DNA of 39,054 nucleotides, taken from contig JBDLIE010000024.1 in the NCBI GenBank assembly GCA_039715015.1, positions 1 through 39,054 on the forward strand, written 5' to 3'. Below, in pieces: positions 3,523 to 18,500 of this stretch. Position numbers: made by a program. The stretch is from Thermodesulfobacteriota bacterium. GTDB lineage: Bacteria; Desulfobacterota; Desulfobulbia; Desulfobulbales; SURF-16. How positions within the stretch are numbered: position 1 is the first letter of the stretch; each line of letters starts with the position of its first letter.

Positions 3523-6500
3523 GGCGGTTCGATCCCGCCTAGCTCCACCACGATATTCTTTCTGTTGTGATCCAGCGGAAAAGTCTGCCCCTTGATGTGT
3601 TGATCCACTCAAGGGGCTTTTTTTATACCTATTCTTTAGCATTTTCCGTCATTTCCCGTTGTTAAAATCTTCCTGGAAAAGCTGCTTCTGGCCATTGCCG
3701 CCTCTCTGCTCTTGCCTTGGTGCGTAAGAAAAGAAGATAGCGCTTAAGCGCCGGCCGTAGAAAACCATAGACAGGGTAAAGCAACATTGTCTCAACACAG
3801 CGCCCAGCGGCTTTCGCCAAAGGCGTGGTTTGGGAAAAAAGTGGCTCTTGAAAGGGGTCTGTGGTATCAATAATTTGATTTGAGGGCAGGGGATGTGGAT
3901 TTCCCGCATCATCCTTCTCAAGTCTTTTTTTGGTCTTTAATCGGGGAGGGCCTATTAAGTTTTTCCCAATATTAAAGATAAGCCTCTGTTGGTAACGTTG
4001 AATTGGCCTTCTTCCTGCCACAGAGGCTTTTTTTTGTTTCTGAGCCTGGAGCAAGTCATTATGTCGCAAAGTGCCAAGAAGGAACCGAGTCATTCAAAGT
4101 ATGACAAGCCGGTCACCGATGAGTTGATTATGAAGATCAGCAAAGAGGTGGTTGTCAAATTCATCGAAGTGGGCCGTCTGTCGCCTGCAAAATTTGAAGA
4201 GACCTTTCAAGAGGTGCACCGGACGGTCAACAGTGTTGCCAAAGGGGATAGTGTTGACAAGGAGAGAGCATGAGTCAAAGCTCGCAATCTTTCTTAGATC
4301 CATCTCTTAATTTTTTCCCAGAAAAACCAAAGCATATCCACCTCATGGGTGTCTGCGGCACTGGCATGGGCGCCATGGCCGGTCTTCTCAAAAAGGCGGG
4401 TTATGCCATTAGTGGTTCTGATAGCCAGGTGTATCCGCCCATGAGTGACTATCTGGCTAAGGCCGGTATCGATGTGCTCGACGGCTATCGCCCCGAAAAT
4501 TTGAATCCACAACCCGATTTGGTGGTGGTGGGCAATGTAATTCGCCGTGATAACCCCGAGGCCCTTGAGCTTGCCCGGCTTAAAATTCCCTATGTCTCCT
4601 TTCCGCAGGCCTTACGTGAGAAGTTTTTGGCTGGGAAGAAATCGCTGGTGGTGGCCGGTACCCATGGTAAGACAACCACCTCTTCTCTGCTGGCCACCAT
4701 GCTGGCAGGGGCTGACCTTGATCCCGGCTTTATGATCGGCGGCATTGTTAAGGCCTTTCAAGCAAATTTTCACCTGGGAGATGGCGACTATTTTGTGGTT
4801 GAAGGTGATGAGTATGACACGGCCTTTTTTGACAAGGGGCCTAAGTTTCTCCATTATCAGCCCCAGATTGCTATTCTCACATCTGTTGAGTTTGACCATG
4901 CTGATATCTATGATGATTTTGAGGCGGTGAAGGCCTCCTTCGCCCGCCTGGTCTCCATTATGCCGGCAGATGGCGTTTTGATCGCCTGTTTTGATGATCC
5001 GGTTGTCCGTGACTTATGTGAGAAGGCTGGCTGTAAGGTGGTGTCCTATGGTGTTGAGCATGGCTGGGACTGGTCCTTTCAGGACATGGCGAGCTCCGGC
5101 GGCACCACCTCCTTTTCTCTTCTTTTGGAGGGGCAAAGGGCTGGAGAGTTTAAAAGCATTATGCCAGGGCGCCATAATGTCCTGAACTCCCTGGCAGTTC
5201 TTGCTGTTTTTGCTGAAATCGGTCTTTCCCAGGAGGTTATGGCCCGTGAGCTTGCCGCTTTTCAGGGCATTCGCCGGCGCCAGGAGGTGCGGGGGGTCGA
5301 AGCCGGGGTGACGGTGATTGATGATTTTGCCCACCACCCCACAGCAGTGGATGAGACATTGGCCGCCCTGAAAGGGGCCTATCCTGACCAGCGCCTTGTT
5401 GCCGTCTTTGAGCCGCGGACTAATTCCAGTCGCCGGACAATCTTCCAGGAACGGTATGCCGAAGTTTTCACCAGCGCCGATGAAGTCATCATCAAAGAAC
5501 CCGATCCTCTCCTTGGGGTGGCGCCTGAAGAGCATTTTTCCGCCCAGCAGCTTGCCACTGATCTTAAGAGGAAGGGACAGCAGGCGGCCAGTTTCCAAAA
5601 CACCGATTCCATCCTCGACCATCTTCAGGCCACGCTTCGTTCAGGAGATGTGGTTGCCATACTTTCCAACGGTGGTTTTGACAATATCCACCAACGTCTT
5701 CTTGATGATTTGCAGGGCGGATAAGATGGCTTCCTATGCTATTTCCTTTGTTAAAACAAGATGTTAACAGTTGACAGGTGGAGCTGAAAAAAAATGAATG
5801 GCCATTCATAGTTTTGTGAATAGGCATTCATTTTTTTAGTTGACACTGATAAGTGATTAGACTAGAACTTCTCTCTAATTGAGCAGAAATACGGATGCTC
5901 AACAACGTGAATTTGCCATACCTGCCGGACGACTATTGTGCGGCGATGAAATTGGGAGTTTCAGTGGCAAAGACATAATTACAGACTGTTGAAAAACGTA
6001 GCGAGCGCCAGAAAGACACGGGAAAAATGGACGAGAAAGCGAAGCTTACATGTGTAAGTGAGCATTTTGAGACCTTTTTCCTCGGTACCCTTGAGGGGTA
6101 GACGCAGTATTTTCTAGCGTAGTAGTTTTTGAATAGTCTGTGTAAAGGAGTGAAAGTCGTGGATATGTCAGCAGCTTCTCTTGGCGATCTTCTCTATATC
6201 GCCGTCTTCTTTCTCGGAGGCCTTGGTTTTGCCCTGGGCCCATTCATTCTTGTCTTTTTTATCAGCCCCAGAAAAACAAGAAATATTGCAAATAAAACAG
6301 GTCAGTTCATCGAATGTGGTGTGGAGCCAATCGGCCCTGCCTGGATTCGTTACGGTGTGGTGTTTTATCTCTACGCCCTGATGTTTCTCGCCTTTGATGT
6401 TGATGTTCTGTTTCTCTTTCCTGTGGCGATGGCCTATAACTCCGGACAGTTTGCCGGTGGATATAGGGATTTTGTAGAGATCGTCATCTTTGTTGGAATT

Positions 6501-15500: not shown

Positions 15501-18500
15501 ACCTTGGCCATTGGACCATATATGCTCTGGCTGTCTGTTGCTGGTATCCTTTATGGTGGTTTTACCGCCCTGGCCCAGTCCGACATGAAAAAGCTAATTG
15601 CTTACTCTTCAGTGGGCCATATGGGTTTTGTCACCCTGGGTATCTTTGTCTTGAACAAGACTGGTCTTGAGGGCGCTCTTATCCAGATGATCAACCATGG
15701 TATAACCACCGGCGCTCTCTTCCTCATGGTTGGTATGATCTATGAGCGGACCCATAGTCGTGAAATCAAGGATCATTCCGGATTGGCCTATAATTTGCCC
15801 ATCTTTGTTACCTTTATAACAATATTCTCCTTAAGTTCTTTAGGGTTCCCGGCAACCAATAGCTTTATTGGTGAGTTTCTCATCCTTGCCGGTGGTTTTG
15901 AACATAGTAAGATTATTGCAGGGGCAGCTGTCCCTGGCGCCATTCTTGCCGCTGCCTATATGCTTCGTCTTCTCCAATATGTTCTTTTTAAAGGCGAGGG
16001 GCGCTCTGATATCAGTGATCTTAACTTCAGGGAGACTGTTACCCTGGTACCCCTGTTGATATTCGTGTTCTGGATTGGTCTTGCCCCGGAACCATTTATG
16101 AATGTAATGCACACCAGTGTTGAGTTTCTGCTTAATCAGGTTCACAGCTCCCAGGCCGTTGCATCACTGGCTATACATTAATGAGAGTTTGATCGATCGG
16201 TGGCGCCATGATTTCCGAGTGGAAATGATTGGTAGCTTGAAACATCAGGTTGATAATTAAACATTAGGAATACACCATGTTGTTCTTACCAGAATTGTTC
16301 CTCCTCGGCGGCAGCCTTCTTCTCTTCTTTATTACCCTTGGAGAGGATAAAGGCACCCTGGCAAAAAATGTTACCATCGCCATTGGCCTTGTATTTACCA
16401 TTCTATGCGTCGTGGGAATAAATAATTCCGGCACTCTATTCTACGGTGCCTATGCAATCGATTTCTACTCACAGTTTTTTAAGATTATTATTGGTTTAGG
16501 TACGACCTTTGTCGTATTTCTCGCCCCGGATATCAGGGGAATTAACACCAAGGTAAAGGCTGAATATTACCTGTTTATGGTTCTATCGGTCCTTGGCCTG
16601 GTTATGCTGATGTCCAGTGCTGAGCTTCTCACTCTGTTTGTCTCCTTGGAGCTTTCTTCCTACGCACTCTATCTCATGGTGCCCATGCGTGATGACTCTA
16701 CCGGTGAGAGAAGGCAGATGGAGGCAGGCATTAAGTATGTCATGTTCGGGGTGATCTCCACCGGCGCCATGCTCTTTGGCATGTCCTATCTTTTTGGTCT
16801 CACCGGAACCACCTATTTTGTGGAACTTGTTCCTCAATTACATAGTATGTTTGCCGCCAAGCCGGTTGCTCTCCTTGCCGTGCTTCTGGTTATGGTTGGT
16901 TTCTTTTATAAGCTTGCCATCTTCCCCTTTCATTTCTGGGTTCCAGATGTCTATGAAGGGGCGGCCAATCCCACCACGTCTTTTATTGCCACCGTGCCCA
17001 AGATTGGCGCCGTGGCAATTATGATCCGTATTGTTACCTTGGCCAATCCCGGCGAAGCCAGCTGGCTGGTTCTTGTTTTGATGATCGCAGCGGTTGCCTC
17101 CATGTTTTATGGTAATCTCTCGGCCCTGGTTCAGACAGATGTCAAACGGATGCTTGGTTTTTCAGGTATTGCCCATGCCGGTTTTGTTCTTCTTGGTCTG
17201 CTGACCATGGATGAACTGGGTTATGTCCGTGCCACCTTCTATATTATTGGTTACTTATTGATGAACCTGGCCTGCTTTCTTGTTATCTGCAATGTTTCTG
17301 TGCAGGGAGAGAATGTCAGCCGTGATGATCTGAAGGGGCTTTATAAGAGATCACCCTTCCTGGCCCTGATCCTTCTGGTTGGCATGTTTGCTCTGGCCGG
17401 TATTCCACCCTTTGTAGGCTTCATCGGTAAATTCATGCTTCTCACCGGTGCCCTGCAGGCCGATCATCTGACTTTGGTTATCCTGGCCGCCCTAAATACC
17501 GCCATCGCTATTTTCTATTATCTCTCTGTTGTTCGCGTCGCCTTTACCTCGGATCCGGAAGATCGTCCTGACGTTGTGATTGGTGCTTCCACCCGGGCGG
17601 TTGGCGTGATTTTAATGGTGGTCATTGTTTACATGGGTGTTGCTCCTAACTATATTTTGAATGTCGCCAGCCAGGCCATGAAGGTCATTATGTAAAAAAA
17701 GGCTGCTATAAATTTTTGAAAGGCCGCAGGTTATTAACCAGCGGCCTTTTTTATTTATGAAGCATTGCCACCCGGGCAACGGATGAGAGCTTGACAAGTA
17801 AAAAATATTTGTTTAATAACCTTGGTAATCTGTCAGGGAGGTCTTTCCTGTAGATACTTGAGGTATGCGACACTTCCTCTCTATTGGTAATGATTGGGCG
17901 GACATAGCTCAGTTGGTAGAGTACAAGCTTCCCAAGCTTGGTGTCGCGGGTTCGATCCCCGTTGTCCGCTCCAGCCTCTCACCGCTTGAATGTGGTGTTT
18001 CTTTTGTCGGTAGGCAAAAGAAGTATTTTTGAAGTTGTACCTGCAAAGTGGGCTCTGCCCGCTTTTTTTATTGTATCAAAAGAAGATCGGCTCACTCCTC
18101 CTTGGTTTGGTGGAGGAGCCTTTATTTAAAAGAGGTAGCTATGGCCCAGAGCATGCTCTTGGACAGGCTTCATGACATTATTGAGCCCATTGCCTCTGAC
18201 CATGGTCTGGAGCTTGTTGAGGTTCAGTACCGCCAGGAACAGCATGGCTGGGTGTTGCGCATCATCATCTACAAGAAGGATGGGGTGTCTGTTGATGACT
18301 GCGCCCAGGTGAGCCGCGAGACGAGCCATGTCCTTGATGTAGAAGATGTCATTCCTTATAAGTATCATTTGGAGGTTTCCTCTCCGGGTTTGGAGAGGCC
18401 GCTTACCACCCCCCGTGATTTTGAGAGAAACCTCGGTAAAAAAATAAAGATATCCTTTGCCGATGATGATCTTGTCAGTGGCCAGGGGATTATTGATAAA

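What a model noticed while it worked through the whole genome (the two positions that open the first line are those of the whole stretch)
6159..17695. Complex I whose NuoL is replaced by a three-gene Mrp module, giving four antiporter-like subunits
The nuo operon (A-D, H-K, M, N; no E-G) has no NuoL. In its place stand g01663, g01664 and g01665, paralogs of the last three genes of the genome's own Mrp antiporter operon (C1). The membrane arm so has four antiporter-like subunits instead of three.
Evidence so far: g01663 is 51% identical to Mrp g00077 and g01665 42% to g00074, against 21-26% to NuoM/N. g01665 is in 15 of 17 order genomes; the order K - g01663 - g01664 - g01665 - M is kept in 6 of 6 loci from six families.
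(Added by a program. Inside this text positions count along the whole contig: contig position 1 is position 1 of the stretch shown here. "Call 12" and the like, gene names such as g00115 and contig names such as C1 are that model's own, and its searches are not shown. The text may have been shortened before it was handed on; [...] marks where a part breaks off. The agent that wrote the report below was given it as the finding of a first reader that could run no searches.)

Follow-up and report, generated by a model that had tools for sequence, protein, structure and literature searches.

The report
Headless green complex I, sulfur bacteria
This is a real but already described kind of respiratory enzyme (the rhizobial 'green complex I', with four pump-like subunits instead of three), here lacking its NADH-input part and standard across an order of sulfur-cycling bacteria; the extra subunit lacks a lysine thought essential for pumping, so a gain in pumping is unproven.

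Summary
In detail: nuoA-D,H-K, then MrpD-like X1 (497 aa), an 85-aa membrane protein X2, MrpD-like X3 (596 aa), nuoM, nuoN; no nuoL or nuoEFG was found in the genome. The design is in print: 'green complex I', where 2 MrpD-like subunits replace NuoL (PMC9040806). Sinorhizobium pSymA has the same K-X1-X2-X3-M-N order, and X1 and X3 are closer to it (54%, 49%) than to the genome's own Mrp (49%, 44%). It is not a 2M complex and not a recent copy of the local Mrp operon. Found here and not in the papers I could read: (1) X3 is a chimera, an Mrp core with a NuoL-type C-terminal tail, so NuoL is not wholly gone; (2) its lateral-helix span (73) equals that of 2M-type NuoL (canonical 48-49), and X1 Lys183 occurs in 66/67 complex I copies but 0/28 Mrp copies, suggesting the row X3-X1-M-N; (3) X3 lacks the TM7 lysine in all 116 copies examined; (4) the module has moved both ways between Mrp and complex I. 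Likely a ferredoxin:menaquinone pump; a fifth proton is unproven.

The parts
6159..6575 (+). nuoA
   Evidence: PF00507
6545..7054 (+). nuoB, with the adjacent-Cys N2 motif
   Evidence: TIGR01957 over cut-off; alignment to E. coli NuoB
7051..7608 (+). nuoC
   Evidence: PF00329
7612..8730 (+). nuoD; the GPQHP..HG and RLDY stretches match S. meliloti NuoD
   Evidence: PF00346; alignment
8743..9756 (+). nuoH
   Evidence: NF004741 over cut-off
9815..10255 (+). nuoI, two 4Fe-4S motifs
10255..10797 (+). nuoJ
   Evidence: PF00499
10791..11111 (+). nuoK
   Evidence: PF00420
11129..12622 (+). X1 (g01663): MrpD-family subunit with a full MrpA/NuoL-type charged axis (E149, K233, H258, K264, H346, H350, K354, K409), no lateral helix
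11675..11677 (+). X1 Lys183 (TM6), specific to complex I context
   Evidence: K in 66 of 67 complex I copies, 0 of 28 Mrp copies
12619..12876 (+). X2 (g01664): 85-aa protein with two hydrophobic stretches, no named family; homologous to the small Mrp gene and to the S. meliloti 84-aa gene
   Evidence: 1402 homologs at E<=1e-5 among 3274 candidates; unnamed Atlas clusters
12869..14659 (+). X3 (g01665): MrpD-family core plus TM15, long lateral helix and TM16
13469..13471 (+). X3 Asn201 at the position of the TM7 lysine (E. coli NuoL K229)
   Evidence: N in 115 of 116, S in 1, K in 0; phylum-wide set N 95 of 97, K 0
14435..14656 (+). NuoL-type tail of X3 (residues ~523-596)
   Evidence: NF005141/TIGR01974/NF005633 hits; hhalign to canonical NuoL tails, probability 99.0, E 2.4e-18, 74 columns
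14682..16181 (+). nuoM (E145, K225, K256, E398)
   Evidence: TIGR01972
16277..17695 (+). nuoN (E125, K212, K242, K385)
   Evidence: TIGR01770
17719..17752 (+). GC-rich inverted repeat followed by a T run after nuoN, terminator-like
   Evidence: read by eye; not listed by the scan, whose loop limit is 8

Best explanation
The operon encodes a headless (no NuoEFG) member of the green complex I lineage. SHOWN: gene content, orthology of X1-X2-X3 to the rhizobial module, and a NuoL-type tail on X3. INFERRED, assembly: one membrane arm in the row X3-X1-NuoM-NuoN-NuoKJAH; X1 takes NuoL's seat against NuoM, X3 is the added distal subunit, and its lateral helix straps all four (about 26 Mrp-derived residues over X1, then the retained NuoL tail over M and N). 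X2 is a small structural subunit of the module. INFERRED, origin: the D2-small-D3 end of a three-MrpD Mrp operon recombined into nuoL once, keeping nuoL's 3' end; later exchanges ran both ways. INFERRED, function: electrons enter at NuoI from a low-potential carrier such as ferredoxin and reduce menaquinone with ion pumping, or run in reverse to make reduced ferredoxin for the Wood-Ljungdahl pathway. Whether it moves five rather than four ions is about even odds, because X3 lacks the TM7 lysine.
For: Same order J-K-MrpD-small-MrpD-M-N on S. meliloti pSymA and a Pararhizobium plasmid; window X1, X2, X3, M are 54, 40, 49, 52% identical to the S. meliloti proteins. X1 tree: all 67 complex I copies, rhizobial ones included, lie in one clade (SH-aLRT 81) with 3 Mrp copies nested inside; 2 changes against about 24 in shuffles. 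Tail type followed context in the tails printed, including swapped cores: L038/L064/L147 (complex-I-type core, Mrp operon, Mrp tail) and L221/L223 (Mrp-type core, nuo operon, NuoL-type tail). Tyr-to-Gly span of the lateral helix: canonical NuoL 48-49 in 38 of 51 rows, 73 in 4 rows including the two-NuoM operon L276, X3 73 in 21 of 27. X1 K183 in 66/67 against 0/28, lost in the three copies that re-entered Mrp operons. AlphaFold model gives TM15 462-481, helix 498-570, TM16 575-595. X3(6-526)+X1(15-492) co-fold: weak support, 0.59 against best control 0.00; the mark was reached by 116 of 157 solved and 2 of 215 mismatched pairs, but at 0.60 or under by only 18 solved and both mismatches; runs agree in at least 96% of contacts, partner pLDDT at least 71; it may pass by likeness to solved antiporter-subunit pairs. 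Genome has CdhC/ACS, DsrA and two futalosine-pathway (PF02621) genes.
Against: Subunit order is not shown: the co-fold gave no interface, and the helix has pLDDT about 50. Structural alignment of the model puts X3 residue 528 on E. coli NuoL 558, which implies only about 12-15 extra residues, and hhalign places canonical NuoL's D-E-x-Y on X3 523-526, not 497-500; on that register the helix is of normal length. Helix length does not always track subunit number: 3 of 4 extended NuoLs sit in one-nuoM operons, L201 has a span of 99 with a single nuoM in its genome, and most Mrp D3 tails are as long as X3's (54-118, mostly 68-86). Clade support for X1 is only 81, from a quick LG+G4 tree. The X3 core tree needs 6 changes and rejects one complex I clade (AU p 6e-21 on 46 of 97 rows). 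The electron donor is not identified by any search.
Confidence: 0.7

Rival explanations
1. Same subunits, other order: X3 sits in NuoL's seat with a normal-length strap over M and N, and X1 is appended distally, held by X2.
For: X3 523-596 is colinear with canonical NuoL from its D-E-x-Y motif; structural alignment gives about 12-15 extra residues only; X1 has the MrpA/NuoL-type TM8 His and TM11 His/His/Lys typical of a distal subunit (PMC7419157).
Against: X1 K183 is tied to complex I context, easiest to explain if X1 faces NuoM's TM12 Glu; the invariant D497-x-x-Y500 matches E. coli NuoL D542-W-L-Y545 and gives exactly the 2M-type span of 73; X3 also has the TM11 His/His/Lys set.
Confidence: 0.2
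2. Four subunits but no pumping gain: X3 is a strap and proton-exit cap rather than a coupled pump, so stoichiometry stays at four protons per two electrons. (Compatible with either order; the confidence is for this point alone.)
For: TM7 Lys is replaced by Asn in 115 of 116 X3/D3 copies and never Lys; PMC7419157 calls LysTMH7 absolutely conserved and essential (passage). X3 also lacks about 13 residues between TM8 and TM9.
Against: X3 keeps E126, K232, H302, K365 at 95% or more, and has an invariant TM6 His155 that could partner E126; the same substitution is in all 30 Mrp D3 copies, so it predates the move into complex I.
Confidence: 0.45
3. The Mrp-derived module makes the enzyme a sodium pump or couples Na+/H+ exchange to the redox step.
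For: X1 and X3 are annotated MrpD family and derive from an Mrp operon; the genome also has Rnf.
Against: The Mrp subunits that form the cation path in PMC7419157 (MrpA C-domain, C, E, F, G; passages) are not in this operon; the recruited genes are from the proton side.
Confidence: 0.1
4. X1-X2-X3 was copied recently from this genome's own Mrp operon, or the genes are shared parts of the Mrp antiporter merely co-located with nuo.
For: Homology to the three last Mrp genes, 38-51%.
Against: Higher identity to rhizobial complex I proteins; own Mrp D2 and D3 fall in separate Mrp clades; NuoL-type tail; the Mrp operon has its own full set.
Confidence: 0.03

Closest known systems
[quoted passage not shown]
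   Same: Two MrpD-like genes with a small gene between them in place of nuoL; order K-X1-X2-X3-M-N; 40-54% identity; same NuoL-type tail, helix span, TM7 Asn and X1 TM6 Lys.
   Different: No nuoEFG here; canonical A-B-C-D-H-I-J-K order rather than the rearranged rhizobial operon; the only complex I found in this genome, whereas rhizobia carry it as a second operon.
2M complex I (Chadwick et al. 2018, not held; as described in PMC9040806)
   Same: Four antiporter-like subunits; lateral helix about 26 residues longer on the favoured register (73 against 48; L276 is a two-nuoM example).
   Different: The fourth subunit is not a second NuoM; one nuoM, no nuoL.
Complex_I_3 of Ca. Manganitrophaceae (PMC9040806, section 10 read)
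   Same: Two MrpD-like subunits related to the rhizobial ones replace NuoL.
   Different: It has two NuoM (five subunits) and a further 26-residue helix insertion.
11-subunit complex I lacking the N-module (PMC3144371, passages)
   Same: No NuoEFG; NuoA-D, H-K, M, N present.
   Different: Has a canonical NuoL.
Three-MrpD Mrp operons (group 3-like in PMC5703873, passages; own operon on C1)
   Same: End in the homologous D2-small-D3 module with the same TM7 Asn.
   Different: Carry MrpE, F, G, B, C, D1; D3 has a non-NuoL tail; D2 lacks Lys183.

Membership tests
Green complex I | Two MrpD-like subunits replace NuoL (PMC9040806) | tested here: met
Green complex I | Module orthologous to the rhizobial one (order, identity, tree) | tested here: met
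   (clade support 81, quick tree)
Green complex I | NuoEFG input module, as in the rhizobial operon | tested here: not met
   so this is a headless form, and I could not read whether the 2016 definition requires NuoEFG
Green complex I | Rearranged gene order J-K...N-A-B-C-D-E-F-G (PMC7415380 mentions a peculiar rearrangement) | tested here: not met
   window order is A-B-C-D-H-I-J-K-X1-X2-X3-M-N
2M complex I | Second nuoM in the operon | tested here: not met
   one TIGR01972 hit over cut-off among the 13 genes; seven antiporter-like genes accounted for
2M complex I | About 26-residue extension of the lateral helix | tested here: inconclusive
   73 against 48-49 on one register; about 12-15 on the structural register
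11-subunit (headless) complex I | No NuoEFG, intact Q-module | tested here: met
11-subunit (headless) complex I | Canonical NuoL | tested here: not met
Mrp antiporter | MrpB, C, E, F, G cation-path subunits in the operon | tested here: not met
   they are in the separate C1 operon
Antiporter-like pump subunit (X3) | TM5 Glu / TM7 Lys pair (PMC7419157) | tested here: not met
   Glu kept, Lys replaced by Asn
Complex I with increased stoichiometry | More than 4 H+ per 2 electrons | not testable with these tools
   needs reconstitution

The most novel reading that the evidence does not exclude
The Desulfobacterota headless form is the main reservoir of the green complex I: a chimera made once by recombining a three-MrpD antiporter end into nuoL, whose distal subunit pumps a fifth ion through a lysine-free (Glu126/His155) coupling site. 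The D2-small-D3 cassette is a plug-in that has moved repeatedly between Mrp and several complex I operons, with the strap tail and one interface lysine switching with the host complex. It would be a natural test of whether each antiporter-like subunit pumps its own proton.
Probability: 0.3. Interest if true: 0.75.

Novelty: new member of a known kind. Interest (0 to 1): 0.42.

Why it matters
The headline design is published, so the finding as written is not a discovery. What it adds is range and anatomy. The enzyme is near-universal in this order (55 of 60 other genomes sampled) and is the only complex I found in this genome, while a canonical NuoL passes cut-off in only 15 of 61; cultured strains carry it (Desulfogranum marinum DSM 2058, Desulforhopalus singaporensis DSM 12130, Hydrosulfovibrio ferrireducens CB1MN). 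A four-subunit arm whose outer subunit lacks the 'essential' TM7 lysine bears on an open dispute, one proton per subunit against exit through the distal subunit only (PMC13220270 and PMC7419157, passages). With recalled potentials (menaquinone about -74 mV, ferredoxin about -450 to -500 mV) and a 150 mV motive force, four ions give 0.60 eV and five give 0.75 eV against a need of about 0.75-0.85 eV, so a fifth ion could decide whether reverse flow to ferredoxin is feasible.

Tried and rejected
[quoted passage not shown] Nine full-text searches listed no paper that I found describing this operon in Desulfobulbales; most listed papers were seen only as listings, and supplements and figures (e.g. 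Fig. 4, S2 of PMC9040806; Fig. S2 of PMC4758237) were not seen. phmmer of the X3 tail alone against PDB gave only chance hits. The co-fold gave no interface, so it does not fix the order. No RNA holder was listed. Promoter scan at chance level, 16 against 13.4. X2: no Pfam/NCBIfam family over cut-off, no Atlas structure; no fusion of X2 to X1 seen in the haloarchaeal locus L157. The NuoF-like hit as input module was rejected: it is RnfC. E. coli NuoG hits on C5 (24-30%) lie near the CdhC hit and were not followed. Rows dropped: 3 NuoL rows gave no motif and values of 39, 64 and 106 look like pattern mismatches; tail values of 130 likewise; loci L002-L031 (short flanks), L052 and L053 were left out of the residue sets; trees used 95 and 97 picked rows, the AU test 46 of 97. 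Several genome-contig loci duplicate handle genomes, so the counts are not independent. Earlier findings were not available.
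Full report
Observation. The window carries thirteen co-oriented genes from 6159 to 17695. 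Family scans name them nuoA, B, C, D, H, I, J, K, then X1 (g01663, 497 aa, MrpD family NF006236 over cut-off), X2 (g01664, 85 aa, no family), X3 (g01665, 596 aa, MrpD family NF009310 over cut-off), nuoM and nuoN. A six-frame search of the whole genome finds seven antiporter-like genes: these four and three in an Mrp operon on C1 with the order E, F, G, B-N, B, C, D1, D2, two small genes, D3. None reaches the NuoL cut-off. No NuoE domain was found and the one NuoF-domain hit is RnfC. The nearest named X3 records (93-96%) are titled Desulfurivibrionaceae or Desulfobulbaceae, so I take the order to be Desulfobulbales.

Distribution. Of 60 other order genomes, 54 have a full-tail X3 at 54% or more, one has it frameshifted, one has only a 32% hit, four have none. 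Of 40 regions cut from them, 27 show K-X1-X2-X3-M, covering 16 of 17 families. Of 80 loci from the named collection, 61 show that order, 6 show K-M-X1-X2-X3-N, 1 is an Mrp operon and 12 are cut by contig ends; they include Verrucomicrobiota. In the phylum, 72 of 151 genomes match X3 at E<=1e-60; of 40 regions cut, 23 have the same order, 2 have K-M-N-X1-X2-X3, 14 are Mrp and 1 lacks a detected X2. Five of these carry nuoE/F/G-like genes nearby. A canonical NuoL over cut-off occurs in 15 of 61 order genomes and in none of the six of the own family.

It is a known design. [quoted passage not shown] X3 finds 114 plasmid records, mostly Sinorhizobium, Rhizobium and Ensifer. The S. meliloti pSymA region reads nuoJ, K, MrpD (487), hypothetical (84), MrpD (586), M, N, A-F. 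Window X1, X2, X3 and M are 54, 40, 49 and 52% identical to these, above the 49, 38 and 44% to the own Mrp, and the X3 match runs full length only to the rhizobial protein. In the X1 tree all 67 complex I copies, rhizobial included, form one clade (SH-aLRT 81), with the own Mrp D2 outside. It is not a 2M complex: there is one nuoM.

NuoL is not wholly gone. The last 107 residues of X3 hit NuoL and NdhF profiles weakly (E 1.5e-5 to 3e-3), as does the rhizobial tail, while the own Mrp D3 tail does not. Profile alignment of 27 X3 tails to 38 canonical NuoL tails gives probability 99.0 over 74 columns, from residue about 523. In the tails printed, complex I copies end in the NuoL-like pattern and Mrp copies do not. 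This holds where cores have been swapped: L038, L064 and L147 are Mrp operons with complex-I-type cores and Mrp tails; L221 and L223 are nuo operons with an Mrp-type X3 core and a NuoL-type tail. The X3 core tree accordingly needs 6 changes of context and rejects a single complex I clade, while X1 needs 2. The simplest history is one recombination of the Mrp D2-small-D3 end into nuoL, keeping nuoL's 3' end, then exchanges both ways; direction rests on midpoint-rooted quick trees.

Order in the membrane (inferred). The X3 model has TM15, a 13-residue coil, a 73-residue helix at low confidence, and TM16; its best structural matches are NuoL and MrpD (Z about 44, rmsd 2.3-3.0 over 443-505 residues). 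Counting from the Tyr of the D-x-x-Y motif to the Gly before TM16 gives 48-49 for canonical NuoL (38 of 51 rows), 73 for four extended NuoLs including a two-nuoM operon, and 73 for X3 (21 of 27). X1 carries Lys183 in TM6 in 66 of 67 complex I copies and 0 of 28 Mrp copies, including the three that returned to Mrp operons; that suits contact with NuoM's TM12 Glu398, whereas in Mrp the neighbour has Lys there. I therefore favour X3-X1-M-N. Against it: the alternative register makes the helix normal in length; three of four extended NuoLs lie in one-nuoM operons and L201 has a span of 99 with one nuoM; most Mrp D3 tails are equally long. The X3-X1 co-fold gave weak support only (0.59, best control 0.00; reached by 116 of 157 solved and 2 of 215 mismatched pairs, at 0.60 or under by 18 and both mismatches; agreement at least 96%, partner pLDDT at least 71) and no interface, and may reflect likeness to solved pairs.

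Does the fourth subunit pump? X1, M and N keep the full charged axis. X3 keeps the TM5 Glu, TM8 Lys, TM11 His/His/Lys and TM12 Lys but has Asn where the TM7 Lys should be: 115 of 116 copies Asn, one Ser, none Lys; 95 of 97 Asn in the phylum-wide set. PMC7419157 describes this lysine as absolutely conserved and essential (passages). An invariant His155 in TM6 may stand in. So five ions per two electrons, the figure suggested for such complexes in PMC9040806, is open; I put it near even.

Likely role (inferred). The Q-module motifs are intact, the genome has futalosine-pathway genes, CdhC/ACS, DsrA and Rnf, and no NADH-input module was found. Ferredoxin:menaquinone oxidoreduction in either direction fits; the donor is not shown.

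Papers: PMC9040806 passages and section 10; PMC7415380, PMC5419562, PMC4967309, PMC7419157, PMC5703873, PMC4758237, PMC3144371, PMC4453560, PMC13220270 passages only; others as search listings; Chadwick 2018 and Degli Esposti 2016 not seen. TM numbering of key residues, redox potentials and the role of NuoL R175 are recalled.

Verdict. Real, conserved, already known in design: a headless member of the green complex I lineage. The chimeric tail, the context-tied lysine, the missing TM7 lysine and the order-wide range were not in what I could read and make it a useful experimental object. Interest 0.42.

Noticed in passing
L124, L130, L131, L132, L134, L136: A second headless nuo operon in Desulfobulbales with order K-M-X1-X2-X3-N. 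Its M and X1-X2-X3 are 65-74% identical to the window's, but its other subunits resemble those of NuoL-bearing operons such as L286: apparently a second NuoL replacement.
   Followed up: partly
L201:12004-13833 (G117): X3 with a further 26-residue helix repeat (span 99), as reported for five-subunit Manganitrophus complexes, yet only one nuoM was found in the genome.
   Followed up: partly
L274, L275, L277: NuoL with the 2M-type helix extension in operons with a single nuoM; each genome has a second nuo operon nearby. L276 is a true two-nuoM operon in Desulfobacterota.
   Followed up: partly
L214, L218: Full complex I with nuoEFG and the order K-M-N-X1-X2-X3.
   Followed up: no
L104, L116-L120, L123, L127, L128: Verrucomicrobiota/Opitutales records carry the same headless operon; four tested nest among Desulfobulbales copies in both trees, hinting at transfer (not tested for one clade).
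   Followed up: partly
L192:6894-10629: Mrp operon with two D3-type genes in tandem, one with a complex-I-like core.
   Followed up: no
L052 (G016): Four divergent antiporter-like genes (496, 590, 502, 772 aa) with no nuo or mrp small subunits detected nearby.
   Followed up: no
L053 (G006): The operon is broken by many frameshifts in nuoD, H, X3 and M; probably assembly error.
   Followed up: no
L115: Extra nuoM and nuoN genes lie directly upstream of the operon.
   Followed up: no
L001:8481-8693: A second small hydrophobic gene (70 aa, His-rich tail) between Mrp D2 and the X2 homolog, with no counterpart in the nuo operon.
   Followed up: no
L155:10134-17214 (G000 C6): Complete rnfCDGEAB-apbE cluster beside a three-gene glutamate synthase-like cluster.
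   Followed up: partly
window:17898-29567: tRNA-Gly followed by the ordinary rimP-nusA-infB-rbfA-DHH-truB-pnp-M16 peptidase cluster.
   Followed up: no
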